Notes: generated by a model from the letters alone, not told the origin. Positions 15,756 through 56,284 are shown, counted from the stretch's first letter. The stretch: DNA of 59,716 nucleotides from a virus (IMGVR_UViG_3300020045_007673:1-59716), one strand, 5' to 3'. Numbers and translations are program-made.

Positions 15756-16264
15756 TGGACTTCAAAGATGCTCTACGAAAACTCGCCCCTACTGCGGCGG
15801 CTATACTTGGCGGCCCGTTCGCTGGAATGGCGGTGGAGGCTCTTGGATCGGCCCTCGGAATCGATGCGCCAACGCAAGAAAAGATGGCTGCTGCTTTCAA
15901 ATCCCAGCAACTCACGGGCGATCAACTCATCGCCATCAAGCAAGCTGAACACAATCTCGCATTGAAACTCGAAGAGCTAGGGGTGAAACGTGAAGAATTG
16001 GACGCTGGTGATCGAGCCTCGGCACGTGGTATGCAAGTCTCCACAGGGTCATGGGTTCCGGGTGTCCTTGCGATGGTTATCACTATTGGATTCTTCGGGA
16101 TACTTATCACCATGGTACTCGAAGAAATCCGACCCTCAGAACCGCTTCTGGTCATGCTCGGATCGCTCGGCACGGCATGGACGATGATGTGCGGGTTCTA
16201 CTACGGCAGCAGCCACGGCAGCCGCGCCAACCAGCAAGCGCTGCTTGAACGGGCGGCAAAATGA
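15755..16264 (+). CDS. Holin (3TM-holin-like)
   Basis: APT.A..LGGP..G.A, DRASAR, two C-terminal TM segments and FYYGSS.GS. Confidence 0.75.
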   Translation: MDFKDALRKLAPTAAAILGGPFAGMAVEALGSALGIDAPTQEKMAAAFKSQQLTGDQLIAIKQAEHNLALKLEELGVKREELDAGDRASARGMQVSTGSWVPGVLAMVITIGFFGILITMVLEEIRPSEPLLVMLGSLGTAWTMMCGFYYGSSHGSRANQQALLERAAK

Positions 16265-18083: not shown

Positions 18084-19822
18084 TGGCGGAAATAAAGCAA
18101 CTCTACCAAGTCAATACGCTTCCCGGCATCAAGCGGGACGGCACCGCGCTAGACGGCGATCAATTCTCTGATGGCCAATGGGTACGCTTCCAACGTGGCC
18201 GCCCGAAGAAGATCGGCGGGTATCAGCAAATCTCCGACGCGCTTACCGGCCCGGTGCGGGAGTGCTTGGTGTGGTCGCGAAGTGATATGAACGCGATTTA
18301 TACTTTCTCGCCGTCGAAGATCGAAATGTTGCTCGTGGATAACAACGGGCTAGGTTCTTCAATTATCAACCGCTCCCCGGCTGGATTCACTGAGGATGAC
18401 AACTATATTTGGAGCGTGAGCACGCTTTACAACGCGGGAGGTAGTACCACGGCGGTATTGGCGCATGCCTCCAACTCCATGACGAATATTGACTCGACGA
18501 CGCAATTTGACACCTACTATGGTGATGCGTCCGGGGACAGCGCTTTCGTCGCCATCACCGGCACCGGCCCAACGGGCAACGGGGTTTCTGGCGGAGTGTT
18601 TTGCGTACCGCCCTATGCGTTTTACATCGGTTCTGACGGCTACATCCAATGGAGTGATGTGAATCAGCCAACAGTATTGACCAGCGGAGAGGCAGGCGAT
18701 GGCCGAATCACCGGCGCAAAGCTGGTGAAAGGGCTTACCCTGCGCTCGGGTTCCGGCCCCGCGGCGCTGTTGTGGTCGCTGGATTCCGTCATTCGTATGG
18801 ATTACTCTGGCGGGCAAAGTCTGTTCCGTTTCTCTCACTTGAGCGCGCAAACCTCGGTACTTAGTCAAAACAGCATTCTTGAATATGATGGTATTTATTA
18901 TTGGGTAGGTATTGACCGCTTCCTGTTTTGCGACGGCGGAACGGTGCGGGAACTCCCGAACCAGATGAATATCAATTGGTTCTTCGACAACATGAACTAT
19001 GCGCAGCGTCAGAAGGTTTGGGCGATGAAGGTGCCGCGTTTTGGAGAAATCTGGTGGTTCTTCCCCTTCGGAAACGCCGAAGAATGCACCCACGCGGTGA
19101 TCTACAACGTGCGCGAACAGACTTGGTACGACCTGGCATGCCCGAGGGCGGCTGGCTATTACTCGCAGGTATTCCGCTATCCGGTGATGGCCGGGAATGA
19201 GACTTCCGCGAAGGTGTCGCTTGATCTTTCCGCAGTGGCGGGCACGATCAACGTCGGAGATGAATTGGTTGGGGCGAGTTCCGGAGTTAGCGGCACCGTA
19301 GTGAATATCTCCGGAAGCGATTATCAAGTGATGCTGGATAACGCAAGTCTGGTTTATTCCGCTACCGAGGGCGTCACCGATACAGAAACAGCGGCGACTG
19401 CCACGGTGGATTCCGTCGCCTACCTTTACGCGCTGTACTCTCACGAAAAAGGGAAAGACAAGATCGTCGGGGATGCGGTGACTTCCATTGAGAGCTATTT
19501 CACCACGGCAGATTTTGGCTTGCCCACAGGCGGCGCGGCGCAGAACGATATAACGGGCTTGAATCGCTGGACACGACTTATCCGGATCGAGCCGGATTTC
19601 ATTCAAGACGGAGACATGAGCGTAACGGTAAGCGGTAAGGAATTCGCGCACGCAACTACTAGAGAATCAGACCCTTACGTGTTCAACGAATCAACAGAAA
19701 AAATTGATATGAGGGAACAACGGCGTGAAATTAGGTTAAAATTTAGCTCAAATACTGTCGGCGGACATTATGAAATGGGGCGGGTAATTCTTCACACCGA
19801 GCCTGGTGATGTGAGGTCATAA
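18083..19822 (+). CDS. Tail nozzle / tubular protein B (P22 gp10-like DNA stabilization protein)
   Basis: PGIKRDGT, VRFQRGRPKKIGG, FGEIWWFFP and YNVREQTWY motifs. Beta-propeller-like. Confidence 0.75.
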   Translation: MAEIKQLYQVNTLPGIKRDGTALDGDQFSDGQWVRFQRGRPKKIGGYQQISDALTGPVRECLVWSRSDMNAIYTFSPSKIEMLLVDNNGLGSSIINRSPAGFTEDDNYIWSVSTLYNAGGSTTAVLAHASNSMTNIDSTTQFDTYYGDASGDSAFVAITGTGPTGNGVSGGVFCVPPYAFYIGSDGYIQWSDVNQPTVLTSGEAGDGRITGAKLVKGLTLRSGSGPAALLWSLDSVIRMDYSGGQSLFRFSHLSAQTSVLSQNSILEYDGIYYWVGIDRFLFCDGGTVRELPNQMNINWFFDNMNYAQRQKVWAMKVPRFGEIWWFFPFGNAEECTHAVIYNVREQTWYDLACPRAAGYYSQVFRYPVMAGNETSAKVSLDLSAVAGTINVGDELVGASSGVSGTVVNISGSDYQVMLDNASLVYSATEGVTDTETAATATVDSVAYLYALYSHEKGKDKIVGDAVTSIESYFTTADFGLPTGGAAQNDITGLNRWTRLIRIEPDFIQDGDMSVTVSGKEFAHATTRESDPYVFNESTEKIDMREQRREIRLKFSSNTVGGHYEMGRVILHTEPGDVRS

Positions 19823-34803: not shown

Positions 34804-35115
34804 CTATTCGCTCCAACCAAAATCTAGTTCGAGCGGTTCGTACTTGAAAGCCTCACGGTTCCAGCGAAGAATATTCACCTTTTCGACGAATTCAGACATA
34901 ATCGCCGTACAAATCCCGCACAACGTAGGATCACCCACCACGAGAAGGTAATCGCCGTCCTTGGCTTGTGATAGTACGTGGCGGGCGTATTCGATGAGCG
35001 CCGGGCCGTTGTAGTTGCGCCCCATTGACGAATACACGTCCTTCAATTCGCCAAACTCTTCTGCGCGTGAAAAATCCTTGCGCCGATCATTGAATACGAT
35101 CCAAACGTTTGTCAT
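34804..35115 (-). CDS. Conserved hypothetical protein downstream of the DNA polymerase
   Basis: DFSRAEEFGEL, DYLLVVGDP and LRWNR...Y motifs. ATGA-coupled. Confidence 0.65.
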   Translation of the reverse strand: MTNVWIVFNDRRKDFSRAEEFGELKDVYSSMGRNYNGPALIEYARHVLSQAKDGDYLLVVGDPTLCGICTAIMSEFVEKVNILRWNREAFKYEPLELDFGWSE

Positions 35116-37001
35116 TTTGTTTTCCTTGGTTTGCGAACTTTCGGGGGAGGCGTTACCAAGGCGATTTCTTCGTCGGTGAGGTATTCTTTGCACCCCAAAT
35201 TAATCGCTATGTTTATCGCTTCATTATGGTACCAATTATAATGCAAATCGGTCGGAAAAGCTATCGGTAAAACCATACATTCTTTCCCGCCGTCTGTCTT
35301 TGCTACTTTGTCCCCTTCTTTCTTACCTGGCCCGTAAACAATCGGCGCGAGATTCTGTTCAGTTGATTGATACCAGCGGACTACCCGTCCCAGGTGATTC
35401 TCCCCCTGAAACCCTCCCCCGGTGACCCCGCGAACAGAAATAAATTCTTTGAACGGCGCGGCGCGAATGGTATCCATAAAGGGAACGCCATCGCGGAGCC
35501 AGCAAGCTACTGCTTTAGCACAAACCGGTGCGGTGGGGTTTTTGGACAGATTCTCTTTGTAGATTATCTTGCCGGTCTTGTCGGTATCAACTACCGCGTA
35601 GATACCTTTTGACTTTATCTTTCCGTCTTTCGTAATCGCGAGATAATTATTGACGTCCTTCATCGCCAACGTTTTGTAGTGAGTGTACTCGAACGAAAAC
35701 CCACTTATTTTAGAAAACTCGGATACAACCCTTTCCACGTCATTGAAAATTTCTTTACGCGCTCCGATAGCGATACCGTCGGTGTTGGCTGAAAGAGAGC
35801 ATGCTCCGATACTCTCCAATCGCTCCATAAGGGTAAGCAAGGTAAGCTGACCAGTGAGGGTGACGGCAAGTCCGAGGTCGGGGGAGTAAAGCGCAGACCA
35901 CCGTTCCATGAGCTTTCCGAAGGTGCCGTTGAGCGAGATTTTAAGTACCGCATCCGTGGCTTTATCGCCATTTTTCTTTGCCTCAAGCCGACGAAAGTAG
36001 ATGCGCTTATACTCCTCGATGAAACGTTCCCCAATGTTCTTGGGAATAAGATTGAGATTGAGGATGATGGACGGATAGTACGACGCCGCATCAATATCAA
36101 AGATAAAATATTCTTTTGTCGCGACATGGCAAACCTTTTTGTCGTGTTTTGAATGAATACCGCCGACGCCCAGCTGATATTCCCCGGCGTTCAATTTTAC
36201 AGGTTGCTTTTCCAGGAACTCCGGCAAAATGACGTGGCCGGTTTTTTGGTTCATCAAGTATTCTTGATCTACGATTCTCTGCGTCAGCTCGACTAGGTGA
36301 GGGGTAGAAAATTGAATATACTCCGGCAATTTGTAATAAATGGAGTACGGAACCTTGGTACTGCCTTTTTTCAATCCCAGTCGAACCATAAACGCAGCTT
36401 CGGCCATTTGGGTGTCGGATTTGCTACGCATATCGACGCTATATTCCAGACTCATGTCTCGCCGTAAATCGAGCGCACCCTTCAAGCGGTCGTACAGTTC
36501 CTCCGTGGTGTTGAGGTCGTTTTCGCAATACTGATCTACTTCGGCAAACTGCTCTTCGGTCAAGCTATCGATGTCGTGCGCGTAAGGCAAATCCTTCAAC
36601 CAGGGCATATGCATACGTGCGCCGTATGCTTTGAGACTGACGAATCCCGGCGTTACTTCCATGAGGTCGATGTGATCCCATTTCAGTTCGACGAGGCCAT
36701 ACCTCCGACGAATTTCCCAACGGCTGATGGAATCTTGTATCAACGCGTTGGCGATTTGCTTTACTTTTTCGTAAGGCAGCCCGGCTAGTACCGCCGAGAT
36801 AACTACTTCATCGAACTTGATTCCGTTGTACGACACAAAGGTGCATCCTGATTCGACAACTTCCCGTAGCCGGGGCAAGGCTTCCGGTTCGTCGCCCCAT
36901 ATCGTGATTACGTTGCGGTTTTCTTTGACACGCCCCTTGAAGAGAAAACGGCCACCTAGTAATTCTACGTCAAATATTATTGTCTTTTTCAAAGTTACCA
37001 C
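35112..37001 (-). CDS. Family B-like phage DNA polymerase with 3'-5' exonuclease
   Basis: Exonuclease motifs FDVE, YNG..FD and YCEND. Polymerase motifs DAASYYPS, KISLNGTFGK and NTDG. Confidence 0.85.
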   Translation of the reverse strand: MVTLKKTIIFDVELLGGRFLFKGRVKENRNVITIWGDEPEALPRLREVVESGCTFVSYNGIKFDEVVISAVLAGLPYEKVKQIANALIQDSISRWEIRRRYGLVELKWDHIDLMEVTPGFVSLKAYGARMHMPWLKDLPYAHDIDSLTEEQFAEVDQYCENDLNTTEELYDRLKGALDLRRDMSLEYSVDMRSKSDTQMAEAAFMVRLGLKKGSTKVPYSIYYKLPEYIQFSTPHLVELTQRIVDQEYLMNQKTGHVILPEFLEKQPVKLNAGEYQLGVGGIHSKHDKKVCHVATKEYFIFDIDAASYYPSIILNLNLIPKNIGERFIEEYKRIYFRRLEAKKNGDKATDAVLKISLNGTFGKLMERWSALYSPDLGLAVTLTGQLTLLTLMERLESIGACSLSANTDGIAIGARKEIFNDVERVVSEFSKISGFSFEYTHYKTLAMKDVNNYLAITKDGKIKSKGIYAVVDTDKTGKIIYKENLSKNPTAPVCAKAVACWLRDGVPFMDTIRAAPFKEFISVRGVTGGGFQGENHLGRVVRWYQSTEQNLAPIVYGPGKKEGDKVAKTDGGKECMVLPIAFPTDLHYNWYHNEAINIAINLGCKEYLTDEEIALVTPPPKVRKPRKTK

Positions 37002-37235: not shown

Positions 37236-37535
37236 CTACCGATCCTGATTGACGTAACCTGATCCGGCGTCGCACTCTTCGACCTTGATCGCTATACTTT
37301 TCTTACCTAGTCGTTCCAATTTCAATTGCTCTACTTTTTTCTGAAGATAATGAATGGACTTTTCGATATCTTCAATCTTCTTGTCCTCATCTCCCTTACG
37401 CCCTAGTCGCCATAGATATTTAGTGGCTGCGGCAACAAGGTAACACCAGTTCAATTCATAAACAACGTCCCAGTGATCAGGTAAGTTTGGATTTTTGTAA
37501 TGTTCCCCTCCGATTTGCTTGTCATTTGCTTTCAT
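37236..37535 (-). CDS. DUF3310 (nucleotide-modification-associated) protein
   Basis: QIGGEHYK and KYLWR...K...EDIEKS.HYL motifs. Confidence 0.75.
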   Translation of the reverse strand: MKANDKQIGGEHYKNPNLPDHWDVVYELNWCYLVAAATKYLWRLGRKGDEDKKIEDIEKSIHYLQKKVEQLKLERLGKKSIAIKVEECDAGSGYVNQDR

Positions 37536-38016
37536 TATGTAACTCCCAAATTGCGTTACAGACTTCGCGTTCTTTACCAACGAGGATCAAATCCTCGGCG
37601 TAACCGGCGTACCGTTCAGCGACGATTTGCATACGTTGGTTGCCGAGGCGCACTTCAGACAACGAGAAACTCAAGCCTTGAAATATGTCGGCCAATTTCA
37701 ACGCTCTCTTTTCGTCTCCGGTAATCTCTACGTCAAACTTAACGGTAGAGAGTAACCGTGATTCCAATTCATTTACCTGTTCGCCGATACCGTATGCCTT
37801 TTTACTAGGCGAGGGTAAATCCCCCGTTACGTGCTCGGCCAGGTCGTGAAACGCGGCGGCTTGCAAAATCGAGCTAGAATGATAGCCAAGTAGAATACAG
37901 AACATTATCACCCCGTGGGAGTGATGCCCTACGCTTTCGCTTTGAATGGTACGTACAGTGTGATACCGCGATACTTCGCTGCCGTCTTGATAGAATTTGA
38001 TTTGTTGTTTGATCAT
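37522..38016 (-). CDS. HD-domain 5'-deoxynucleotidase (YfbR/DatZ-like)
   Basis: RYH...ESV.HHS, FHDLAE..TGD.PSP.K and KLAD motifs. Confidence 0.8.
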   Translation of the reverse strand: MIKQQIKFYQDGSEVSRYHTVRTIQSESVGHHSHGVIMFCILLGYHSSSILQAAAFHDLAEHVTGDLPSPSKKAYGIGEQVNELESRLLSTVKFDVEITGDEKRALKLADIFQGLSFSLSEVRLGNQRMQIVAERYAGYAEDLILVGKEREVCNAIWELHNESK

Positions 38017-38141
38017 TTCTTCGCCTTAAAAAAGATCATCGCAATTAGCATACCGAAAATTACCCAAAAAGTTACGGACGTTACCGCCCAAAAAACATAC
38101 CACCAAAATCCAACAATCGGTTGCACCATAAAGTCCATCAT
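38013..38141 (-). CDS. Small membrane protein (42 aa, not in the ORF track)
   Basis: MMDFMVQPIVGFWWYVFW...FFKAKK. ATGA overlaps at both ends. Confidence 0.55.
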   Translation of the reverse strand: MMDFMVQPIVGFWWYVFWAVTSVTFWVIFGMLIAMIFFKAKK

Positions 38142-39118
38142 TTCTTCGCCTCCTCGCGGCGCTGTATCCATTCCAATGTTGCGATTCTCCAATCATCGGC
38201 GGCAATTTGGTTTGCCCAAAAAATGCCGTCGCCGGTTTTGTCTTTGCGCGACTTAGACGCCATCGCCATCGGATACGCGATGTCCTTGAAAAAACTATCG
38301 AGCCAGGGAGAAAAACTGAACGGGTTTTCGCAGTAGTATTCCGCTTCCAACAACCACTTTTTCCAATTCGTATTCGGAGACATAAGCGGCGACGGCTTTA
38401 CCCCGTGAAGGTACGCATCGTAACTCTCAGGGCTTGGAGGATTATCCAAGTGTTTCACGGCGTCGCACAGCTTCGTATAGAGATGAAGATTGTGACTGAA
38501 TTGACGATATACCCCCAATGGAACTCCGACGGCGCTCGCGACAAATTCCTGCAGAACGCTGAAATGAACCGCGTTACTTCCGTAAGCGCCGTACCATAAA
38601 TCGTTAGAACGATTCAATACCGTCATATTGAGCCGGTCGGCGCGTATCTCGAAAAACACCTGAGTATTACACGCCTTGTCCTTTGTGGCTTTGCCGAGGT
38701 CGGACGGTTCCCATATCTGCATAACCGCTTGCCGCGTGTTACGATCTTTCGTCAGGACTTCGATTACCCGCTCCAGTTGGTCATACCCGAAATGTTTGCG
38801 CCAGCGATAGCCGTAGGCTGCGTTGAAATTCTTGCCGTCGTCGGAGTATTGTCCGAAACGAGAATTGAACATTTGCGGAAACGCGACATCGCGGCGACCG
38901 GCGAGCATCCACACGCTTTCGAGTAAATGAAACACGGGGTTGCAATCTCGTTTGTCCCAGAATAGAACGCGCTCCTGAGGACGCTCGTAGGTCGTCATAA
39001 CTGGCTCTGGAAAAGCGATTACCGGCCCGTTACGTGAGCTTTCTTCGCGCCCCATGACCTTTAATTTCCAGAGAGCTTCGCTGAGCGCGGAATTTACGTT
39101 TCGTGTGGCGATTTCCAT
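38138..39118 (-). CDS. Thymidylate synthase-fold dUMP hydroxymethylase
   Basis: AYGYRWR, RQAV, catalytic DKAC, NRSNDLWYG...N (Asn typical of dUMP specificity) and NLHLY. Confidence 0.8.
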   Translation of the reverse strand: MEIATRNVNSALSEALWKLKVMGREESSRNGPVIAFPEPVMTTYERPQERVLFWDKRDCNPVFHLLESVWMLAGRRDVAFPQMFNSRFGQYSDDGKNFNAAYGYRWRKHFGYDQLERVIEVLTKDRNTRQAVMQIWEPSDLGKATKDKACNTQVFFEIRADRLNMTVLNRSNDLWYGAYGSNAVHFSVLQEFVASAVGVPLGVYRQFSHNLHLYTKLCDAVKHLDNPPSPESYDAYLHGVKPSPLMSPNTNWKKWLLEAEYYCENPFSFSPWLDSFFKDIAYPMAMASKSRKDKTGDGIFWANQIAADDWRIATLEWIQRREEAKK

Positions 39119-39285
39119 TACAGCGTTACCTCTTTTCCGTTCAAAATGTAGCGAGCCGGGACGTGACGGTTCCTTTGTGAAAACTCCAGCACGTACTGTT
39201 CGGTCGTCATAAACTTTCCCTTTTTAGGTATCTGATAAGAAAGTTTTCTGAGTAGCTGCGCGGGACTCGGTTTGCGTTTTGCCAA
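39118..39285 (-). CDS. Small basic hypothetical protein (55 aa, TTG start)
   Basis: AGGAG RBS. Its TAA overlaps the ATG of the TS-fold gene. Confidence 0.45.
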   Translation of the reverse strand: MAKRKPSPAQLLRKLSYQIPKKGKFMTTEQYVLEFSQRNRHVPARYILNGKEVTL

Positions 39286-39363
39286 GGTAATCTCCTAAAA
39301 AGCGGTTTCGGGTTTGTATTTACCTCTACCTTTGATAAATCCTTCTGCTGGGCATTCGTAGTC

Positions 39364-40266
39364 TCATTTCTTCACTGTCGGGGTAAATGTGTTGCGCGGT
39401 CTACCTTCTCCACGTATGGTTTTGATCATCTTAAAAGTCTCGCAAGCGGCGTTTTGTGCGTCATGTAAAGTTAAGTCATCTATCTTCAACTCGTTTTCTA
39501 TTCTATCCAGCAAATGGATTAACTTTTCATTGAATTCTTTCTGCTTCCAAGTTCTCTTACCATACAAAGCGTCTAAGCACGCGGATGAACCGGGACCAAT
39601 CGGAGCAAAAGTTCGTAAGTCTGAGGCTGAACCTAGTTGTTTTGTGTAAGAAAGATCGGAGGCGACTTGCCCGGAAGTAAAACTGCTGAATCCATAATTT
39701 TTCATCAGCTCCGTCACCACTGCTTCCACTGTCTTTGTTTCGTGCACAGCGTGTCGTAAATTGTCAACATTAGTTTTCAACGGAGCAAGGATATGTTTAC
39801 CAACTGCTTTCCCTTTAGGTAACCCCGTTTCTTTTTTGGATGGAAAAATCATATAGCTACCGGTCCATGCTTTTCCACCGGCCCGAGTTATTCCGTCTAC
39901 CACTTCAGAAAACAACTCATAATCAAAATCTTCTACTCGCATTGGAATGGCTTTCGCGTCCAAAAGAGCTTGAAGAGTTGTGGGTAAATTTACATACCGG
40001 GCGATTGCCGCAATAAAAAACAAGTCTTCACAATCCTCGTAAGGTAAAAGTAGATTATCAATAATCCATTTCGACACCCGGTCATTCTTTCTATGTAAAT
40101 TGCAAAACCTGTACTGTTGGAACATCCAGTGGTCTGACCAAGGGGCTGGGTGGTAGTTTTCTCTAGCATAAAAAATAGCCATTCTCTCCCAACACCACCA
40201 GAGATAGCCTTCTTCAGAAGCAACGTTTTCAGCTTCCGGAGGCGCAAAAGGGTTATTCTGAATCAC
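39364..40266 (-). CDS. 5-hmdU DNA kinase (aGPT-Pplase1 family)
   Basis: WS...FQQYRFCN..R..DRVS, F..GQV..DL.Y, IGPGS and Q...CE..K motifs. Confidence 0.8.
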   Translation of the reverse strand: MIQNNPFAPPEAENVASEEGYLWWCWERMAIFYARENYHPAPWSDHWMFQQYRFCNLHRKNDRVSKWIIDNLLLPYEDCEDLFFIAAIARYVNLPTTLQALLDAKAIPMRVEDFDYELFSEVVDGITRAGGKAWTGSYMIFPSKKETGLPKGKAVGKHILAPLKTNVDNLRHAVHETKTVEAVVTELMKNYGFSSFTSGQVASDLSYTKQLGSASDLRTFAPIGPGSSACLDALYGKRTWKQKEFNEKLIHLLDRIENELKIDDLTLHDAQNAACETFKMIKTIRGEGRPRNTFTPTVKK

Positions 40267-40810
40267 GGAGGATCTCCATTATTTGGTCATATGCGTGTTC
40301 GTAATCGATCAACGCCACACGATAGCCTTCTCTCTTGAGGGTCTTATAGGTACTTACGCATTGTCCCCATTTCATCTCGGTATTGGTCGTATTGAGGGGC
40401 TTTTCGTTTCCGGCGGCGAGTCGGCGAGCTTTTACGCGTTCTATGCAGACTTCGATCGGGGTATCAAGAAACGCGTGACAATAATCGCCGGTTTCAGTTA
40501 TCCTCGCAGTAACTTCAGCCTTCGGCCCCCCACCGGAAAGTAAAAGCCCTTCGAGGATGACGTGGCCGTCGGCCCCCCAACGAATCGCTCGATCCGCGGA
40601 TTCTTTCTGCCGGTGAATTCCATCCGTTCCACCGCACGCCGTTTCGTACTTGCCGACTAGATGAATTGGTTTTTTGAGTCCTGCGAACACGCGATACCCG
40701 AGTATCTTTTTCTGTTCATCTAGAATTTTCTCACTCAGGAAATTCTTAAGTAGTGTGAAAGCGACATGACTTTTGCCGGATCCACTGGTACCGCGAATGG
40801 TGATGATCAT
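40253..40810 (-). CDS. P-loop nucleotide kinase of DNA-modification clusters
   Basis: IRGTSGSGKS, GKY...CGG.D and FLDTP.E.C..RV..RR motifs. Confidence 0.75.
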   Translation of the reverse strand: MIITIRGTSGSGKSHVAFTLLKNFLSEKILDEQKKILGYRVFAGLKKPIHLVGKYETACGGTDGIHRQKESADRAIRWGADGHVILEGLLLSGGGPKAEVTARITETGDYCHAFLDTPIEVCIERVKARRLAAGNEKPLNTTNTEMKWGQCVSTYKTLKREGYRVALIDYEHAYDQIMEILRDSE

Positions 40811-41799
40811 AGGAAATACTCCGCTCTGAATGGAACACCGGTGTCCGCAAACATTTTAGCCTTCTTGTCGCGAGAAGTCAAAGGTTTTTCACACTCTTCA
40901 CGTAACCACGTCGGTAGGTAGTCACTACGAATTTGCTTGAACACTTCCGTGAGCTTTCCGAACCCGCGAGAATCATACCATTTTATACGATCCAAATGCA
41001 TGTCAGCATAGACACCAGGATAGCGCCGACGGAAGAACCCGTTTTTGAACGCGCAACACTGACTTTCAAATGTAAAATACCCCGCGTGTTCGTGGTTGCG
41101 CTTTGTTCGGTAGTCGCTCAAAAACTGGTCGGCGTGTTTGTTTAACCAAGGAACCATCTTGTCGAAATTATATTTTCCATCGAACCCGTTCGGTAGGCGT
41201 TTGTCCCAGACTAAATCTTCGTGACCGAGTAAGAATAGCATTCCGTTCCGGTGGGACTTAGAACCTTCCTTGTCTTCCCAGAACAGGTTGTCGCAATCGG
41301 CACCGAAACCCATGATACGCACGTACTCTAGATAAGAAAAACTCGTCAGTCTACCGAAAGAGTAGAAACCTTCAGTGACTTTGGTCCAGAGTTCCGAAAA
41401 GGATCCGGTGAGTAGCTTCTCCTGCGAGCCGTGGTCTTCTACCAGTTTGGAGTATGAGTACACCGCCATCGGCGTATTTCGTTTCCCATGGCGACGGTCA
41501 GTGTCGAAGGATAGATTCCCCCATTCGACGTCGAACCACTCATTGAACACTTTGAATTCTTCCTTGGTGCGCGGCAACTCCGGAAACCGCTCGAAGATTC
41601 TAATCGACGTGAGTGGGTTTTGCGTCATCCCATTATAGAAGGCGAAGATCAATTTTTGATCCGTATCCCAACCGTAGTGCTCGGCGAGCTTCGGCATCAG
41701 GAGATACACGAGACCTGGGTGGACGCCGTATTCCAGGTTCATCGCATAGAGCTTTGTAAAATACTCTTCGCGATTCTCGGGCAGTCGGTAATCCATCAT
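40807..41799 (-). CDS. Amino acid:DNA transferase (aGPT-Pplase2 family)
   Basis: FDTDRR, FGR...FSYLE, ESQCC.FK and YPG.Y.D motifs. Located between the PLP enzyme and the kinases. Confidence 0.75.
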   Translation of the reverse strand: MMDYRLPENREEYFTKLYAMNLEYGVHPGLVYLLMPKLAEHYGWDTDQKLIFAFYNGMTQNPLTSIRIFERFPELPRTKEEFKVFNEWFDVEWGNLSFDTDRRHGKRNTPMAVYSYSKLVEDHGSQEKLLTGSFSELWTKVTEGFYSFGRLTSFSYLEYVRIMGFGADCDNLFWEDKEGSKSHRNGMLFLLGHEDLVWDKRLPNGFDGKYNFDKMVPWLNKHADQFLSDYRTKRNHEHAGYFTFESQCCAFKNGFFRRRYPGVYADMHLDRIKWYDSRGFGKLTEVFKQIRSDYLPTWLREECEKPLTSRDKKAKMFADTGVPFRAEYFL

Positions 41800-42749
41800 A
41801 CTACCTCCAATGAATGAGTAAAGAATCGTTCCATCGCCTTCGGGTCAGGCTCTCCGCCGACGATCCAAAACAATGATTTACCGTCGGAAGGAACGGCGTC
41901 ATTTTGTTTCAGCCACCGCCACATCTTACCTTCGTACGTTGGATGTAGAGCTATCCCGTGAGCGGTTTCCGGCATCTTATCGGAATATGTAGAGAAATCT
42001 CCATGTAATGTAAGGTACTTTACTTTGAACGGTAACTTTTCCCGTTCTACCCCGAGAATAGCCAGACGCTGCCAAAGCCACTCTCTCTTGTCTGGTCCGA
42101 TCTCCATCGCCACCACGGTTTTGACGTTCTTGGGGGCACGAGATAATCCAAGAATTACGGAGCAAATCGAATTGCATGAACCGGTTGGCATGATTATCGT
42201 CTCTATTTCGTCAGGGATATTCTTGGTTTGGTTGGCACCAATGTCGTGGAATGCACGCACTTCTTCCTTGGAATAGATTCTATGGTCCAGCGTGATACCG
42301 TAATGCACCACTAGGGAGGAAGGTTTGGTAAGGTTAGTCACCTTTTTCTGTATAATTGGATTGTAGGGTCCGGAACAGTATTCGAAAACTGCTCCAAAAC
42401 CAGCCGAAATGCGCGGAGAAGGATGCGTAAGAATAGTTGATGGTTTGCTATACACAACGAGCCGAGACGGAAGGCCGTAGTGTGCTCCCACGATCGCGGA
42501 CATTAAAAGCTGGGGAGATTGTATAGACGCGCCGGAAAGAATATGAGTCTTACCTTCTCGATAGCGGTCAATATACCAGATAATCTGGCGGCATTTGGAT
42601 CCGCCGAGTCCCCCAGGGCCGAGCGGTTGAAATAAATCATCACGTTTGAACCACAACCCTTCTCGGTTTTCTACAGGAGTCAAGGTCTCCATATAGTCTT
42701 CCCAGTGAATTAGATTTCGGTCCAGCGTGTAGTTGGGAAAAATAATCAT
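41796..42749 (-). CDS. PLP-dependent enzyme (fold II, ACC deaminase-like; putative DNA decarboxylase)
   Basis: LTPVE, FKRDD..GG.GGSKCRQ (PLP lysine), PTGSCNS, LHPTYEGK and FWIVG motifs. Confidence 0.8.
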   Translation of the reverse strand: MIIFPNYTLDRNLIHWEDYMETLTPVENREGLWFKRDDLFQPLGPGGLGGSKCRQIIWYIDRYREGKTHILSGASIQSPQLLMSAIVGAHYGLPSRLVVYSKPSTILTHPSPRISAGFGAVFEYCSGPYNPIIQKKVTNLTKPSSLVVHYGITLDHRIYSKEEVRAFHDIGANQTKNIPDEIETIIMPTGSCNSICSVILGLSRAPKNVKTVVAMEIGPDKREWLWQRLAILGVEREKLPFKVKYLTLHGDFSTYSDKMPETAHGIALHPTYEGKMWRWLKQNDAVPSDGKSLFWIVGGEPDPKAMERFFTHSLEVV

Positions 42750-52602: not shown

Positions 52603-53670
52603 ATGACCGAAGGATACAAAATTTTGAGTTTGCCGGAGCATGATGAGAAAATCAAATTTGAGCTGAAAAGCTGCGCGCACCTATTACCGCTCAGCAAGCG
52701 CGAGCAGATTCAAAACGTGGTAAGTGGAATGTCGCCCTTGACCCGCGCGCGGATAGCGAAGTACCCCGACGGAAAAGGCGCAACGCTCGATTGGTTTAAT
52801 CCAACGATACTTACCGGCGAAGAACCAGAAGATCCAAAGTTCAACCTAGATTGGTGGAACAAGTTGGCGGTCAAGGACAAAGGTTACGCGGAAGAAATGA
52901 AGACCTTCTATGTCCGTGCGACACTGTTCGGCGATCAAGCTACTCGCGAGGACCTCGCTGTAACGTATAAGCCTGTAGATTTCTATGCCACCTTAACGAA
53001 AGATACCGCGCTCGACTGGTATTACGGATTACCGGCTCATCTTCGCGCCAAAACGGACGAGGAGGTGAAAAAACAGCCAAACCCACGTAACGCCACACGC
53101 AAAGATAACGAGGCGCTATGGGACGCAGTGGCCCATTTCTGGGGGGATCGTCCGGCGTTGAAGTGGTACGTGGAAGAAGAGAAGGGGAGAGTAACGAGTA
53201 TAGAACCTGCCAGCAATGAAGCGCTGGAAGTGTATCGTCGTTGGGGGTACGAATATCAACAGGAGACGATTCGCGCTGTAGTGTTGTCGTATGGTCCGTC
53301 TATCCAACGAGAGCGGAAGATGCTCAATGAGGTAATGGGCCTCAACGTAGATAGCGACGGCCTGCCGAACCAGGCGGACGGATTGGACCCCACCACGGCG
53401 GCGACGGTACGGTGGTTGCAATCTACGGGAGAGCTCCCCCTGGAATTTTTAGCCAAGACCTATCGTAGTGAAGATGCGAAGATGAGTGACCGACTGACCG
53501 CCGCCCGGACGATGATGGATTTTGTCCATCGCCGCGTGCCGACAAAAACCGAGACGGAAACCAAGGGCGTTACCGAGCCGAAGCTGTCCGCGAACGTGCT
53601 CAAGAGCCTGGATGCGAAAGAGCTTGAACTGCTGGAAAAGCTGTTGCTGAAACTAAGTAACAATGGCTGA
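52603..53670 (+). CDS. Terminase small subunit-like protein with long N-terminal extension
   Basis: Overlaps the terL start. C-terminal PLEFL...R...RL.AA.....VH motif. Confidence 0.55.
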   Translation: MTEGYKILSLPEHDEKIKFELKSCAHLLPLSKREQIQNVVSGMSPLTRARIAKYPDGKGATLDWFNPTILTGEEPEDPKFNLDWWNKLAVKDKGYAEEMKTFYVRATLFGDQATREDLAVTYKPVDFYATLTKDTALDWYYGLPAHLRAKTDEEVKKQPNPRNATRKDNEALWDAVAHFWGDRPALKWYVEEEKGRVTSIEPASNEALEVYRRWGYEYQQETIRAVVLSYGPSIQRERKMLNEVMGLNVDSDGLPNQADGLDPTTAATVRWLQSTGELPLEFLAKTYRSEDAKMSDRLTAARTMMDFVHRRVPTKTETETKGVTEPKLSANVLKSLDAKELELLEKLLLKLSNNG

Positions 53671-56284
53671 AGTCGCGCCGATCATACTGCTGGATGCCGT
53701 TCGCCGGGAGCGGGAGACTCGCGCTGCCGAAAAATCATTGATTGAATTCACAAAACAGGCTTTCTCTATCATCGAGCCTGGTGTGACGTTTGTTGATAAT
53801 TGGCACTTGCACGCCATAGCGGAACATTTGGAAGCAGTTAGTGATGGGGAGATTGATAACCTTGTGATTAATATTCCTCCGGGATGCATGAAATCAATAT
53901 TGGTTTCTGTGGCGTGGCCCGCATGGGAGTGGATCGAAGATCCTAAATTACGCTACATGGGTGCATCATATGGGTCAGATCTATCAATACGTGACTCTAT
54001 GAAGTGTCGGGATATCGTATTGAGTGAGTGGTATCAACATCGTTGGCCACAGGTTCAGATTAAAGCCGGAAGTGATCAGAAAACCAAATACGACCTCGTG
54101 TCCGGAGGATGGAGAATGGCGACATCCACTGGGGGGCGAGCGACTGGAGAACACCCGGATAGAAAGATTGTGGATGACCCTCTAACCGCGTCTCAGGCAG
54201 ACTCTGACGCCGAAAGAGAGTCTGCCAACGTTTGGTTTGATCGCACTCTATCCACTCGCGGAGAGTCCCGAGGGGCGCGTACCGTCGTAGTAATGCAACG
54301 CCTACACGAAAAAGATATCACTGGGCACATTCTTACGGACTTGGCCGGATATGAACACTTGTGCCTACCGATGGAGTACGACGGTCGTCGATCAGTAACT
54401 TGTATTGGATGGGAAGATCCACGCACTACGGAAGGCTCTTTGCTTTGGCCAGAGATGTTCCCTGCCGATAAACTTAAAAAGCTCAAGCGCCTCCTCGGTG
54501 AATACGGGACTTCTGGCCAGCTTCAGCAGCGTCCGTCCCCAGCTGGCGGCGGTATCCTCAAGGTATCCCACTTTCAACGCTGGCCCGCGAAGGATGAACT
54601 CCCCGCGTTCGACTACATCGTTCAATCCCTCGATTGCGCATTCAGCGAGAAGACTACCAACGACCCTACCGCATTCGGTGCGTTCGGCGTGTTCTCGCAC
54701 AAGGGTAAGCGGGGCGTGATGCTACTCGATTGCTGGTCAGAGCATCTCGGCTATCCCGACCTCCGCGCCAAGGTGTTGGACGAATGGCATTCGGTGTATG
54801 GCAAGACCGGACAGCGGAAGGGCAAGAAAGCCGATGCCGTATTGATCGAGGCCAAAGCGAGCGGACAGTCGTTGATTCAGGACTTACGACAAGCGAACAT
54901 TCCCGCGATTCCATACAATCCGGGCAACGCGGATAAGGTCAATCGCGCTCACCAAGCCTCACCCATTCTTGAATTAGATTGCATATGGATACCCGAGAGC
55001 GCAAAGAACCCTGGTGAGTTTGTGACGTGGGCTAGGCCGTTCATCAGCCAACTTGAGCGCTTCCCGAATGACGAGCACGATGATTTTTGCTTCGTCGGAA
55101 ATACAAAAATAAGAAAGGCAGACGGTCTGGGAATTGACATAATGCACCTTTCGCCTGGTGATTTTGTTGATACTCCGTCTGGCCCTTGCCGCGTGCTTTC
55201 TGCTGGGTGTAGCAATCCTTCAGCAGAAGTGCTTGAGGTTAGGCTATCAAACGGAATTTCTCTTGTTGGCACGAAAGATCATCCGGTTTATATCCCAGCG
55301 CTTGCGGCATTTGTCGCGCTTGGGCAACTCATAGAAGGGGATGAACTATGCGTGTCGTCGAGGTTGTTCGATACAGAGGAGTTAATTACCGCAGATATCC
55401 GTATAGTTCGAGCGCTGCCATATCTAGATATTTTTATGGGAAGCGTGAAGGAAAGAATGAAGCGCTGCATCGGGTTGTTTGGGCAGACAATCACGGGGAG
55501 ATACCAAAGGGTAAGCAAGTGCATCACAAAGACGGCAACCCTGCGAACAACTCGATTGAAAATCTTGAATGCCTTACGTCGGCTGAACATGGAGAAAGGC
55601 ATCAGAAAGACGACGCTTCACCAAGAACAATATACGTTAGAGAATGGAACAAGAAAAACAAAAAGCCAAAGGAAAAGGTTAAGCCTAGCCTCTTCTCATG
55701 CGCAAGATGCGGCGAAGAGTTTGCTTCGCTTCAAACAGACAGGGCTAAGTTTTGTTCAACAAAGTGCCGCGATTTGTTCCATTCCGGCGGAAAAAAAGAG
55801 TATTGCTGCGCCGTTTGCGGAGTTTTGTTTCTTTCCGCTACGGTGGCTGTCGCCTGTTCGCCAGAGTGCAGGAAAGAGTATCGCCGCAGACGAGAGCAGG
55901 AAAGGCACGCAATCCGGTACATGCCAAGAGATAAAAAACAATATCAAAAGCAATGCGGAGAATGTGGAAAGCCATTCGCTACAGAAGAGCATCTGGCGCG
56001 CTACTGTTCCTCCGCTTGCCGCATTGCAAAAAAGCGAAACGACGCGCGTGCTTTGGGTCAAAAGAAAAACCAAACGTGAGCCAGTATATGCAGTAAAAGT
56101 TGAAGGGAATCCCGTGTTTTTCGCTAACGGGGTTCTAGTGCATAACTGCGATATTTTTTCGCAGTGCATGATCTACCTCCGCGATAGCGGTTGGCTTGAA
56201 ATGCCGCAAGCCGCCGAAGATGAACCCGAAGAGGTGGATTATTACAACAAAAAGCGGAATAGCTTTAACCCTTACTCGGCTTGA
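53663..56284 (+). CDS. terL: Terminase large subunit containing an intein
   Basis: INIPPGCMKS, IVDDP, VMQRLHE.D, QS.D.AF and IEAKASG motifs. The HDDF|CD nuclease motif is split by the intein. Confidence 0.9.
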   Translation: MAEVAPIILLDAVRRERETRAAEKSLIEFTKQAFSIIEPGVTFVDNWHLHAIAEHLEAVSDGEIDNLVINIPPGCMKSILVSVAWPAWEWIEDPKLRYMGASYGSDLSIRDSMKCRDIVLSEWYQHRWPQVQIKAGSDQKTKYDLVSGGWRMATSTGGRATGEHPDRKIVDDPLTASQADSDAERESANVWFDRTLSTRGESRGARTVVVMQRLHEKDITGHILTDLAGYEHLCLPMEYDGRRSVTCIGWEDPRTTEGSLLWPEMFPADKLKKLKRLLGEYGTSGQLQQRPSPAGGGILKVSHFQRWPAKDELPAFDYIVQSLDCAFSEKTTNDPTAFGAFGVFSHKGKRGVMLLDCWSEHLGYPDLRAKVLDEWHSVYGKTGQRKGKKADAVLIEAKASGQSLIQDLRQANIPAIPYNPGNADKVNRAHQASPILELDCIWIPESAKNPGEFVTWARPFISQLERFPNDEHDDFCFVGNTKIRKADGLGIDIMHLSPGDFVDTPSGPCRVLSAGCSNPSAEVLEVRLSNGISLVGTKDHPVYIPALAAFVALGQLIEGDELCVSSRLFDTEELITADIRIVRALPYLDIFMGSVKERMKRCIGLFGQTITGRYQRVSKCITKTATLRTTRLKILNALRRLNMEKGIRKTTLHQEQYTLENGTRKTKSQRKRLSLASSHAQDAAKSLLRFKQTGLSFVQQSAAICSIPAEKKSIAAPFAEFCFFPLRWLSPVRQSAGKSIAADESRKGTQSGTCQEIKNNIKSNAENVESHSLQKSIWRATVPPLAALQKSETTRVLWVKRKTKREPVYAVKVEGNPVFFANGVLVHNCDIFSQCMIYLRDSGWLEMPQAAEDEPEEVDYYNKKRNSFNPYSA
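55088..56146 (+). mobile_element. Intein (353 aa) in the TerL nuclease active site
   Basis: Block A CFVGNT, block B GTKDHPV, block F VYAVKV, block G ANGVLVHN, and +1 Cys. Confidence 0.9.
55348..56079 (+). CDS. HNH homing endonuclease with Zn-finger repeats, out of frame inside the intein
   Basis: LHRVVW...G.IP.G.QVHHKDGN..NN..ENLE...H, then three CxxC/CS..C modules. Own RBS GAAGGGG. Confidence 0.85.
   Translation: MRVVEVVRYRGVNYRRYPYSSSAAISRYFYGKREGKNEALHRVVWADNHGEIPKGKQVHHKDGNPANNSIENLECLTSAEHGERHQKDDASPRTIYVREWNKKNKKPKEKVKPSLFSCARCGEEFASLQTDRAKFCSTKCRDLFHSGGKKEYCCAVCGVLFLSATVAVACSPECRKEYRRRREQERHAIRYMPRDKKQYQKQCGECGKPFATEEHLARYCSSACRIAKKRNDARALGQKKNQT

What the first reader, a model, noticed from the sequence alone, without database searches (positions are those of the whole stretch)
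37236..42749. Compact thymidine hypermodification pathway in a podo-like phage with a B-family polymerase
Seen, co-transcribed: PLP fold-II enzyme, aGPT-Pplase2-like transferase, P-loop kinase, aGPT-Pplase1-like kinase, TS-fold enzyme, HD nucleotidase and DUF3310, directly upstream of the polymerase. Established: in ViI, M6/YuA and phiW-14, T is replaced by 5-hmdU, which is pyrophosphorylated on DNA and substituted by an amino acid or amine. ViI decarboxylates O-serinyl-T with a PLP enzyme to 5-NeOmdU, while M6 needs an extra radical SAM isomerase. Inference: with no radical SAM, flavin or acetyltransferase gene here, the adduct should keep a free alpha-amine, so Ser (5-NeOmdU) or another side-chain-linked amino acid (Thr, Cys, Lys) is predicted, possibly giving a new base. 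The characterised examples I know are myo- or siphoviruses.
Basis: partly seen in the sequence, partly recalled or inferred. Interest (0 to 1): 0.8.

Follow-up and report, generated by a model that had tools for sequence, protein, structure and literature searches.

The report
Thymine hypermodification gene cluster, uncultured phage
An uncultured 60-kb phage carries an intact gene set for swapping part of its thymine for an amino-acid-derived base; this is a known anti-restriction trick, here built from parts of two model phages, and the exact base cannot be read from the sequence.

Summary
Each falls in the same PHROG family as a gene of phage M6 or ViI.

The cluster is a mosaic:
- The 5-hmdU supply and activation genes are M6-type: TS-fold enzyme, HD, DUF3310, P-loop 5-hmdU DNA kinase and aGPT-Pplase1.
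- The transferase and the PLP enzyme are ViI-type: gp247-like and gp226-like.

I found no radical SAM, flavin or acetyltransferase gene (59 ORFs scanned; no CxxxCxxC motif in any frame). ViI-like logic is therefore the best reading: kinase, then transfer of an amino acid through its side chain, then PLP decarboxylation.

Serine is not established as the donor. The transferase sits in a separate, uncharacterised clade and differs from the ViI clade at 8 of 11 mapped positions, including 4 of the 5 named ligand-pocket positions.

The cluster is a lineage trait, not a peculiarity of this window. At least 581 IMG/VR loci encode relatives, and 62-70 of the 80 fetched share the gene order. The PLP gene is optional: 3 of 3 complete relatives tested lack it.

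This scan has already reported the same lineage on other DNA. I rate it a new member of a known kind, of moderate interest.

The parts
41796..42749 (-). Fold-type II PLP enzyme, homologue of ViI gp226 (the O-seryl-T decarboxylase). K52 in GGSKCRQ is the predicted Schiff-base lysine.
   Evidence: phrog_3650 at E 2.2e-77, and ViI gp226 falls in the same PHROG. BLASTP to gp226: 34% identity, E 2e-61, K52 aligned to K92. PF00291 scores only 18.1 bits, below its cut-off.
40807..41799 (-). Amino acid:DNA transferase (ADDT / aGPT-Pplase2) with E245, S246 and C249 as the catalytic Glu / metal ligand / Cys motif. The donor is unknown.
   Evidence: PF18724, 48 bits against 26.2. phrog_3271, the family of ViI gp247. 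AF2 model with pLDDT 94.6. The top 3 Foldseek hits are PaMx11 gp46, entries 8Z2M/8Z2N, probability 1.00, TM 0.54-0.63, E 3e-3 to 2e-2. E245 and C249 are invariant in all 38 sequences of alignment A1.
40253..40810 (-). P-loop kinase, probable 5-hmdU DNA kinase of the M6 gp54 type. The Walker A motif starts at G7.
   Evidence: phrog_800 at E 3.2e-19, and M6 gp54 hits the same PHROG at 2e-39. BLASTP to M6 gp54: 31% identity over 139 aa, E 6e-7. PF18748 scores 16.3, below its cut-off of 27. G7, G10, S11, G12 and K13 are invariant in all 34 sequences.
39364..40266 (-). aGPT-Pplase1 / HMUDK_hel protein. It has an HhH glycosylase-like fold and a conserved motif H268 D269 N272 C275 E276 K279. Its role is unknown. 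Its C-terminus is altered by a 23-codon insertion that carries a TGA.
   Evidence: PF18723, 121 bits. phrog_2396, the family of M6 gp55. BLASTP to gp55: 30% identity, E 4e-28. AF2 model with pLDDT 92.9. Best Foldseek hits are MjOgg (probability 0.96, E 0.06) and 8Z2M (probability 0.72), all weak. The insertion is shown.
38138..39118 (-). TS-fold enzyme, probable dUMP hydroxymethylase.
   Evidence: PF00303, 72.5 bits. phrog_5131 at E 4e-111, the family of M6 gp58. 48% identity to M6 gp58, E 5e-101. It falls far below the NCBIfam ThyA equivalog cut-offs, for example 89 against 174.55. The best phage hits are all M6-like phages of Pseudomonas and Stenotrophomonas, at 48-50% identity.
37522..38016 (-). 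HD-domain YfbR-like 5'-deoxynucleotidase. I infer that it depletes dTMP or dTTP.
   Evidence: PF12917, 37.8 bits. phrog_6047, the family of M6 gp59. Present in 48 of 80 related loci.
37236..37580 (-). DUF3310 protein, homologue of M6 gp61. Function unknown.
   Evidence: phrog_5839 at E 1.7e-17. 51% identity to M6 gp61. It is not significantly similar to T7 gp1.7 (E 0.29). Present in 65 of 80 loci.
35112..37001 (-). B-family DNA polymerase that must accept 5-hmdUTP.
   Evidence: phrog_1252 at E 1.4e-146. Weak matches to NCBIfam type B polymerase models. The best cultured relative is 38% identical. Present in 62 of 80 loci.

Best explanation
The cluster encodes a complete pathway that replaces part of the phage's thymine with a 5-hydroxymethyluracil-derived, amino-acid-based hypermodified base.

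All steps below are inferred from homology. None was measured.
1. The TS-fold enzyme makes 5-hmdUMP from dUMP. The HD nucleotidase lowers the thymidine nucleotide pool. The phage PolB then builds 5-hmdU DNA.
2. The P-loop kinase phosphorylates 5-hmdU in DNA to 5-PmdU.
3. The ADDT attacks C6 with Cys249, expels the phosphate, and adds a free amino acid to the exocyclic methylene through a side-chain nucleophile. This leaves the alpha-amine free.
4. The gp226-like PLP enzyme forms a Schiff base with that amine and decarboxylates the adduct to an aminoalkyl side chain.

The single most likely product is ViI's 5-NeOmdU, made from serine. I put that at only about 0.3, because the transferase belongs to a different clade with a different pocket. 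The Pplase1 protein is an accessory HhH-fold DNA protein of unknown role.
For: - Each of the seven proteins has as its best PHROG the best PHROG of one M6 or ViI pathway gene. Three of these counterparts have measured activities: gp54, gp226 and gp247.
- Pairwise homology: PLP to gp226 at E 2e-61 with the lysine aligned; ADDT to gp247 at E 5e-24; TS to M6 gp58 at 48% identity; kinase to M6 gp54 at E 6e-7; Pplase1 to gp55 at E 4e-28.
- The ADDT fold model's top three PDB hits are the glycinyltransferase PaMx11 gp46. Glu245 and Cys249 are invariant and align with the essential Glu and Cys (Lee 2021 section 17).
- No radical SAM, FAD or acetyltransferase gene was found.
- Gene order is conserved in 62-70 of 80 related loci.
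- Among 10 fused relatives scanned, the ADDT domain is joined to a P-loop kinase in 3, to Tet_JBP in 2 and to a PLP domain in 1. The Tet_JBP and PLP matches and one kinase match are below Pfam's cut-offs.
- The transferase pocket signature is nearly identical in relatives with and without PLP. This fits PLP acting as a late tailoring step on the same adduct.
Against: - There is no chemistry. No enzyme activity or virion DNA composition is known for any member of this lineage.
- The kinase, the PLP enzyme and DUF3310 all score below their Pfam cut-offs.
- The ADDT is only 28% identical to gp247. It differs from the ViI clade at 8 of the 11 positions mapped from 15599: N21 for M/L, P28 for N/H, Q60 for Y, S246 for T, A250 for W (T or Q elsewhere in the lineage), N253 for K and Y264 for D, plus Y260 at the Asp238 position under the register correction.
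- The residue aligned to the metal ligand Asp25 of 15599 is Pro28. That part of the alignment between distant clades may be unreliable.
- Three of three complete relatives tested have no PLP gene, so decarboxylation is not essential to the lineage.
- The Pplase1 gene here has an altered C-terminus.
- Fold-type II PLP enzymes catalyse many reactions. Decarboxylation is assumed from a 34% identical homologue.
Confidence: 0.75

Rival explanations
1. The donor is not serine. The lineage-specific transferase installs another nucleophile-bearing amino acid, such as Thr, Cys, homoserine, Lys or Orn. The PLP enzyme then decarboxylates that adduct, giving a thymidine derivative not yet described. This refines the best explanation rather than opposing it.
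For: - The window clade (11 rows, support 100) is separate from the ViI clade (7 rows, support 99) and from the Gly/putrescine/DAP clade.
- Pocket positions that Li 2026 calls cluster-specific determinants (sections read) differ from ViI: W to A/T/Q, K to N, and also Y to Q and D to Y.
- The signature is nearly invariant in about 70 lineage members, which suggests a defined specificity of its own.
- In Li 2026, two Pplase2 enzymes at about 35% identity use different donors.
- Arg259-Tyr260 matches the Tyr that helps bind the glycine carboxylate in YuA. This favours an amino acid over a plain amine (with the register corrected by eye).
Against: - No residue-to-donor code exists for the ViI-type superclade.
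- Only one member, gp247, has a known donor, so a divergent pocket could still bind serine.
- The alignment between distant clades is uncertain.
Confidence: 0.4
2. The pathway is a straight copy of ViI's chemistry. Serine is attached through its hydroxyl group and decarboxylated to 5-NeOmdU.
For: - The ADDT and the PLP enzyme fall in the same PHROGs as gp247 and gp226.
- The ViI clade is the nearest clade with a characterised member.
- The same component list as ViI is present: hydroxymethylase, kinase, Pplase1, Pplase2 and PLP.
- No rSAM gene is present.
Against: - The ADDT is only 28% identical to gp247.
- The node joining the ViI clade has support of only 83, and the branches are long.
- Pocket residues differ at 8 of the 11 positions mapped from 15599, including 4 of the 5 named ligand-pocket positions.
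Confidence: 0.3
3. The PLP enzyme works before transfer, on a free metabolite, and makes the amine or amino acid that the transferase then attaches. It is not a DNA-level decarboxylase.
For: - Fold-type II PLP enzymes normally act on free amino acids.
- The weak NCBIfam similarities are to the ACC deaminase / D-cysteine desulfhydrase family and to XcbE.
Against: - Its closest characterised homologue, gp226, acts on DNA-bound O-SerT (Lee 2021 section 19).
- Relatives without PLP keep the same transferase pocket signature, so the donor is available without this enzyme.
- No alternative tailoring or donor-synthesis gene was seen upstream in two PLP-less relatives.
Confidence: 0.1
4. The genes are present, but the DNA ends up as plain 5-hmdU or T. 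This would mean the transferase branch is inactive, or that the cluster only reshapes nucleotide pools.
For: - The Pplase1 gene has a disrupted C-terminus.
- No expression or chemistry data exist.
Against: - All ORFs are intact.
- Catalytic Glu/Cys, the Walker A motif and the Schiff-base Lys are all conserved.
- Synteny is strong in 62-70 of 80 loci, which indicates purifying selection on the whole set.
Confidence: 0.05

Closest known systems
Salmonella phage ViI 5-NeOmdU pathway (gp67/gp243 kinases, gp160 Pplase1, gp247 serine:DNA transferase, gp226 PLP decarboxylase; Lee 2018 and 2021)
   Same: - The same list of enzyme classes and the same logic: no isomerase before the PLP step.
- The ADDT and the PLP enzyme share PHROGs with gp247 and gp226.
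- PLP is 34% identical, with the lysine aligned.
   Different: - The ADDT is only 28% identical, sits in a separate clade and has a different pocket.
- The kinase here is M6-type, not gp243-type. The match to gp243 is E 0.005, and gp243 falls in phrog_4409.
- The genes are clustered in one 5.5-kb block, whereas the ViI genes seen in the fetched 32-kb stretch are spread out.
- This is a 60-kb phage with PolB, against a 157-kb Ackermannviridae myovirus.
- The PLP enzyme is about 107 aa shorter.
Pseudomonas phage M6 / YuA 5-NedU cluster (gp51-gp62)
   Same: - The gene order kinase, Pplase1, TS, HD, DUF3310, polymerase is the same as M6 gp54 to gp62.
- TS is 48% identical, DUF3310 51%, kinase 31%, Pplase1 30% and HD 30%.
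- All five share PHROGs with their M6 counterparts.
- Genome size is similar, at about 60 kb.
   Different: - There is no radical SAM isomerase.
- The ADDT is of another PHROG (3271 against 6364) and gives no BLASTP hit to gp51.
- The PLP enzyme is of another PHROG (3650 against 7093).
- The window's PolB gave no BLASTP hit to the M6 polymerase gp62.
- No dCMP deaminase was found here.
Glutamicibacter phage Montesquieu (cultured; chemistry not characterised as far as I saw)
   Same: It carries Pplase2 (36% identical), a PLP enzyme directly next to it (34.7%), two P-loop proteins, Pplase1 and a TS/hydroxymethylase. It is the only cultured non-Ackermannviridae phage found with both close homologues.
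   Different: - It uses DNA polymerase I.
- The genes are split into two blocks.
- Its ADDT lies in the sister 41-row clade, not in the window's clade.
PaMx11 gp46 (PUGT, PDB 8Z2M/8Z2N) and the YuA and SH-Ab 15599 Pplase2 enzymes (glycine and diamine transferases)
   Same: The fold and the Glu-Thr/Ser-x-x-Cys catalytic and metal motif.
   Different: - They form a distant clade on a long branch.
- They link the donor through nitrogen.
- Pocket residues differ: K or G after the Cys against A/T/Q here, and S or H against N253.

Membership tests
Amino acid:DNA transferase (Pfam PF18724 ADDT, formerly aGPT-Pplase2) | Match to the family HMM above the curated cut-off | tested here: met
   48 bits against a cut-off of 26.2, E 1.7e-12.
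Amino acid:DNA transferase (Pfam PF18724 ADDT, formerly aGPT-Pplase2) | Essential cysteine with a neighbouring essential glutamate (Lee 2021 section 17; Cys247 in PaMx11 gp46) | tested here: met
   E245 and C249 are invariant in 38 of 38 sequences. They align with the Glu and Cys of M6, YuA, PaMx11, PhiW-14, 15599 and ViI.
Amino acid:DNA transferase (Pfam PF18724 ADDT, formerly aGPT-Pplase2) | All-helical, HhH-containing fold of PaMx11 gp46 | tested here: met
   AF2 model with pLDDT 94.6. Foldseek ranks 1-3 are 8Z2M/8Z2N, probability 1.00, TM 0.54-0.63, but E is only 3e-3 to 2e-2.
Amino acid:DNA transferase (Pfam PF18724 ADDT, formerly aGPT-Pplase2) | Metal ligands equivalent to D25, E222 and T223 of 15599 Pplase2 (Li 2026) | tested here: inconclusive
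   E245 and S246 align with E222 and T223. The column of D25 holds Pro28 in the window clade and N or H in the ViI clade. The N-terminal alignment between clades is uncertain.
Amino acid:DNA transferase (Pfam PF18724 ADDT, formerly aGPT-Pplase2) | Transfers an amino acid or amine to 5-PmdU in DNA | not testable with these tools
   This needs reconstitution on 5-hmdU DNA.
Serine-specific transferase of the ViI gp247 type | Membership of the gp247 clade and its pocket residues | tested here: not met
   The window clade (support 100) is separate from the ViI clade (support 99). Pocket columns differ: W to A, K to N, Y to Q, D to Y. The PHROG is the same, 3271.
5-hmdU DNA kinase (5-HMUDK, M6 gp54 type) | P-loop kinase with a Walker A motif | tested here: met
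   G7, G10, S11, G12 and K13 are invariant in 34 of 34 sequences.
5-hmdU DNA kinase (5-HMUDK, M6 gp54 type) | Sequence relationship to an experimentally verified 5-HMUDK | tested here: met
   BLASTP to M6 gp54: 31% identity over 139 aa, E 6e-7 in a 24-sequence database. Both have phrog_800 as best PHROG. The position next to Pplase1 is the same as in M6.
5-hmdU DNA kinase (5-HMUDK, M6 gp54 type) | Match to Pfam PF18748 HMUDK_HMUD1 above the cut-off | tested here: not met
   16.3 bits against a cut-off of 27.
DNA-acting PLP decarboxylase of the ViI gp226 type | Homology to gp226 with the Schiff-base lysine conserved | tested here: met
   34% identity, E 2e-61, K52 aligned to K92. phrog_3650 for both. 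K92 is the lysine predicted in Lee 2021 (section 19).
DNA-acting PLP decarboxylase of the ViI gp226 type | Decarboxylates a DNA-bound amino-acid adduct | not testable with these tools
   Inferred from homology only. The Pfam PALP match is below its cut-off, 18.1 against 35.
dUMP hydroxymethylase (TS-fold) | TS fold, with close kinship to the enzyme of a 5-hmdU-using phage rather than to ThyA | tested here: met
   PF00303, 72.5 bits. 48% identity to M6 gp58. It scores far below every ThyA equivalog cut-off. A Cys at C150 and an Asn in GSNAV are conserved with M6 gp58. Their roles as catalytic and uracil-specifying residues are recalled from the TS literature and were not tested.
dUMP hydroxymethylase (TS-fold) | Adds hydroxymethyl rather than methyl | not testable with these tools
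   I know of no sequence rule that separates the two. This needs an enzyme assay.
aGPT-Pplase1 / HMUDK_hel (PF18723) | Match to the family HMM above the cut-off | tested here: met
   121.3 bits against 25. phrog_2396, as for M6 gp55.

The most novel reading that the evidence does not exclude
This abundant uncultured phage lineage attaches an amino acid other than serine to thymine through a lineage-specific transferase pocket (N21, Q60, T/Q/A250, N253, Y264). It then exists in two natural chemotypes. PLP-carrying members such as this window bear the decarboxylated aminoalkyl base. PLP-less sister phages bear the intact, zwitterionic amino-acid adduct. Both would be DNA bases not yet described.
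Probability: 0.35. Interest if true: 0.65.

Novelty: new member of a known kind. Interest (0 to 1): 0.4.

Why it matters
Thymidine hypermodifications protect phage DNA from most type II restriction enzymes, and they supply new DNA-modifying enzymes.

This window adds no new enzyme class. It does point to a large environmental lineage: at least 581 IMG/VR loci, with many contigs of 55-64 kb. Its transferase clade has no characterised member, and it offers natural variants with and without PLP that share the same transferase pocket.

That makes it a convenient system for two questions. How is donor specificity encoded in the ViI-type half of the Pplase2 family? What does decarboxylation add?

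The conserved Cys/Asp/His motif in the Pplase1 paralogue also bears on a gap in the field. No function is yet assigned to that protein.

Tried and rejected
- Megablast of the 5.5-kb region against 50,697 phage records found no match.
- phmmer of the ADDT, and hmmsearch with the narrow profile A1, against PDB sequences found no Pplase2 structure. The only hits were spurious M11L matches at E 0.03-0.1. The fold search did find one.
- The search for related loci with the single ADDT protein found nothing. It worked with alignment A1.
- hhalign of the lineage profiles of Pplase1 and ADDT gave no similarity, probability 0.3. Their paralogy, as stated in the literature, could not be shown by sequence here. 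The Pplase1 fold search gave only weak HhH glycosylase and 8Z2M matches, all with E above 0.001.
- DUF3310 as a T7 gp1.7-type nucleotide kinase: the pairwise E is 0.29. Only PHROG profiles annotated 'nucleotide kinase' match it. I rejected this as unsupported.
- The promoter and terminator scan was not above chance.
- Complex prediction of Pplase1 with the P-loop kinase returned no answer, so I draw nothing from it.
- I looked for another tailoring enzyme upstream of the ADDT in two PLP-less relatives. Only DUF932, a primase and unknowns were found.
- Podovirus status: the virion protein at 18080-19822 is 42.6% identical to Caulobacter phages GB2A, RW, RLK and KcrB. Their records give no family, and the depositor annotates a 'tape measure' gene next door. 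The same protein is about 22% identical to Bruynoghevirus and similar ~45-kb Pseudomonas phages. This stays unresolved.
- Literature searches listed no paper that names this ADDT clade or its product. DUF3310 likewise gave no functional paper in the listing.
- Not scanned by any family library: ORF 15755-16264 (169 aa), most ORFs under 100 aa, and two probable shadow ORFs. A small acetyltransferase there cannot be excluded.
- Supplements were closed and I did not ask for them. The contig lists behind Fig. 2 of Lee 2021, and the SSN and Supplementary Fig. S6 of Li 2026, may already show this lineage or its pocket logo.

Full report
**What the window is.** The window is a whole IMG/VR virus record of 59,716 bases, rated 100% complete by CheckV. 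It has no near-identical cultured relative. Megablast of the flagged 5.5 kb found nothing in 50,697 phage records. The best cultured matches to its polymerase reach only 38% identity.

**Observation.** Seven co-oriented minus-strand ORFs lie at exactly the coordinates given.

| Gene | Coordinates | Pfam | Best PHROG |
|---|---|---|---|
| PLP enzyme | 41796-42749 | PF00291, 18.1 bits, below cut-off | phrog_3650, E 2.2e-77 |
| ADDT / aGPT-Pplase2 | 40807-41799 | PF18724, 48 bits vs 26.2 | phrog_3271 |
| P-loop kinase | 40253-40810 | sub-threshold only | phrog_800, E 3.2e-19 |
| HMUDK_hel / aGPT-Pplase1 | 39364-40266 | PF18723, 121 bits | phrog_2396 |
| TS-fold enzyme | 38138-39118 | PF00303, 72.5 bits | phrog_5131 |
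| YfbR-like HD protein | 37522-38016 | 37.8 bits | phrog_6047 |
| DUF3310 | 37236-37580 | sub-threshold | phrog_5839, E 1.7e-17 |

A 79-aa ORF and then a B-family polymerase (35112-37001, phrog_1252 at E 1.4e-146) follow. Several genes overlap by 4-14 bases, so one transcript is plausible. The consensus promoter and terminator scan was no better than shuffled sequence, so co-transcription is inferred, not shown.

**Relation to the characterised pathways.** I fetched the ViI and M6 records and compared their proteins directly and through PHROGs. The cluster is a mosaic.

Five proteins have as best PHROG the family of their M6 neighbours:

| Window protein | M6 counterpart | PHROG | Identity or E-value |
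|---|---|---|---|
| Kinase | gp54, an experimentally verified 5-hmdU DNA kinase mis-annotated 'terminase small subunit' | 800 | 31% identity, E 6e-7 |
| Pplase1 | gp55 | 2396 | E 4e-28 |
| TS | gp58 | 5131 | 48% identity |
| HD | gp59 | 6047 | 30% identity |
| DUF3310 | gp61 | 5839 | 51% identity |

The order kinase, Pplase1, TS, HD, DUF3310, polymerase is the order of M6 gp54 to gp62.

The other two proteins are ViI-type:
- The PLP enzyme shares phrog_3650 with gp226, the decarboxylase of O-seryl-T. It is 34% identical at E 2e-61, and K52 aligns with the predicted Schiff-base K92.
- The transferase shares phrog_3271 with gp247, the serine:DNA transferase, at 28% identity and E 5e-24.
- M6's own transferase (phrog_6364) and PLP enzyme (phrog_7093) are not the best matches.

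**Is anything missing or extra?**
- I scanned 50 window ORFs by Pfam and 9 more by PHROGs only. None was a radical SAM enzyme, flavin oxidoreductase, acetyltransferase, glycosyltransferase or dCMP deaminase.
- No CxxxCxxC motif exists in any open frame of 100 aa or more.
- One 169-aa ORF and most small ORFs were not scanned.
- Lee 2021 showed that the PLP decarboxylases need a free primary amine. M6 needs the radical SAM isomerase to unmask it, whereas ViI's O-linked serine does not (section 19).

**The transferase.**
- The AF2 model is confident, with pLDDT 94.6. Its three best PDB matches are PaMx11 gp46, the 5-PmdU glycinyltransferase, at probability 1.00 and TM 0.54-0.63 (E 3e-3 to 2e-2). 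HhH glycosylases follow.
- E245, S246 and C249 align with the essential Glu / metal-ligand Thr / catalytic Cys of the characterised enzymes (Lee 2021 section 17; Li 2026).
- I built a tree of 91 sequences: 78 representatives from a profile search of 1.84 billion proteins, five proteins of the window's own lineage and eight reference proteins from cultured phages, six of them with known donors. It puts the glycine, putrescine and diaminopropane enzymes on a long separate branch.
- The rest contains a ViI clade of 7 rows (support 99). It also contains a 54-row clade (support 98) in which the window's 11-row clade (support 100) is sister to a 41-row clade holding the Mycobacterium phage Bane1 and Glutamicibacter phage Montesquieu proteins.
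- This was a quick LG+G4 tree with long branches, so deep nodes are tentative.
- At the positions Li 2026 identifies as cluster-specific donor determinants, the window clade differs from the ViI clade. After the Cys it has A (T or Q in the lineage) where ViI has W. It has N253 for K, Q60 for Y and Y264 for D.
- It shares the Arg-Tyr pair that corresponds to the carboxylate-binding Tyr of YuA (with the register adjusted by eye).
- The donor is therefore probably an amino acid, but serine is not established.

**The lineage.**
- The word-index search found 477 proteins at E of 1e-5 or better. The 120 listed are 56-82% identical, and many sit on contigs of 55-64 kb.
- In IMG/VR at least 581 loci encode relatives.
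- In the 80 fetched, the cluster is syntenic. The counts are given under the observation check.
- PLP is optional. Twelve of the 72 loci that yielded a full-length transferase had at least 3 kb upstream of it and no PLP gene. Three of three complete records tested have no PLP homologue anywhere.
- I saw no substitute enzyme upstream in two of them.
- The transferase pocket signature is almost identical in members with and without PLP. This argues that PLP tailors the same adduct rather than making the donor.
- Fused relatives join the ADDT domain to P-loop kinases (3 of 10 scanned), Tet_JBP (2) and a PLP domain (1).

**The Pplase1 protein.**
- Pfam now calls this family the 'helical domain' of the kinase. 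SP10 gp186 is listed as a kinase-Pplase1 fusion in Lee 2018 (Table 3, passage read).
- M6 gp55 was not needed for glycine transfer in lysates (Lee 2021 section 16). ViI gp160 was in the five-lysate mix that made 5-NeOmdU, but its essentiality is not stated in the passages I read.
- The model here (pLDDT 92.9) resembles archaeal OGG glycosylases and PaMx11 gp46 only weakly.
- The family keeps an invariant D269, N272, C275, E276 and K279, and a nearly invariant H268. This looks like an active site rather than a passive domain.
- Its role is open. A complex prediction with the kinase gave no answer.
- In this window the gene carries a 23-codon insertion with an in-frame TGA just before the conserved C-terminal E-T-A-F.

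**Other points.**
- The TS-fold enzyme scores far below the ThyA equivalog cut-offs. Its best phage relatives are all M6-like phages of Pseudomonas and Stenotrophomonas. It keeps the Cys and the Asn that I recall as catalytic and uracil-specifying. All this fits a dUMP hydroxymethylase.
- Lee 2021 found monophosphorylation, not pyrophosphorylation.
- Podovirus status is unresolved.
- TS plus Pplase1 near the polymerase has been described in podoviral pelagiphages. The podovirus Rhodoferax phage P26218 (morphotype recalled) has a Pplase2 homologue.

**Comparison and verdict.**
- This is a member of the known 5-hmdU, kinase, Pplase2, tailoring family of pathways. Lee 2021 already surveyed such pathways in IMG/VR as a 'modular gene pool' (section 21).
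- This scan has reported the same lineage before, with the same conclusion.
- What remains open, and worth a bench test, is the donor of this uncharacterised transferase clade and the natural dimorphism between members with and without PLP.
- I rate it a new member of a known kind, with interest 0.4.

Noticed in passing
window 39295-39366 (minus strand), end of the Pplase1 gene: Compared with 11 relatives, the window's Pplase1 gene has a 23-codon insertion containing an in-frame TGA just before the conserved C-terminal E-T-A-F. The protein therefore ends early with a different tail, unless the TGA is read through. I confirmed the insertion but did not test its origin.
   Followed up: partly
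records behind L027, L057 and L022 (complete relatives): Three of three CheckV-100% relatives tested have the kinase, Pplase1, ADDT and TS but no PLP homologue anywhere. Their ADDT pocket signature is the same as in members that carry PLP. This suggests two chemotypes in one lineage.
   Followed up: partly
P0131, P0150, P0139, P0146, P0148 (representatives): Relatives of this ADDT occur fused to Tet_JBP dioxygenase domains, to a PLP domain, to 5-hmdU DNA kinase 2 (in a 1278-aa protein), and interrupted by an intein with an HNH endonuclease. The Tet_JBP and PLP matches are below Pfam's cut-offs.
   Followed up: no
L084 (Mycobacterium phage Bane1) 1-2847: The closest cultured ADDT homologues (about 34% identity) are in Mycobacterium phages of Bane1's kind (Bclasvirinae in its record). 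In Bane1 the gene sits at the left genome end, beside a ParB-like protein and a protein annotated 'queuine tRNA-ribosyltransferase'. No TS, kinase or PLP gene is nearby. This is a different, unexplained context.
   Followed up: no
In 27-34 kb my longest-ORF pick chose plus-strand shadow ORFs, which would fit minus-strand genes being interrupted there.
   Followed up: no
window 53663-56284: The terminase large subunit ORF is 873 aa, but the terminase profiles cover only residues 14-475. The C-terminal ~400 aa are unexplained.
   Followed up: no
window 18080-19822: This virion protein is 42.6% identical over 86% of its length to Caulobacter phages GB2A, RW, RLK and KcrB (about 62 kb). These may be the nearest cultured structural relatives. 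They did not appear among the listed hits for ADDT, PLP or TS.
   Followed up: partly
window 34804-35193: A small protein just downstream of the polymerase matches Pfam Pam3_gp32 from a Pseudanabaena phage, at 64.8 bits. Pam3 also carries a Pplase2 homologue.
   Followed up: no
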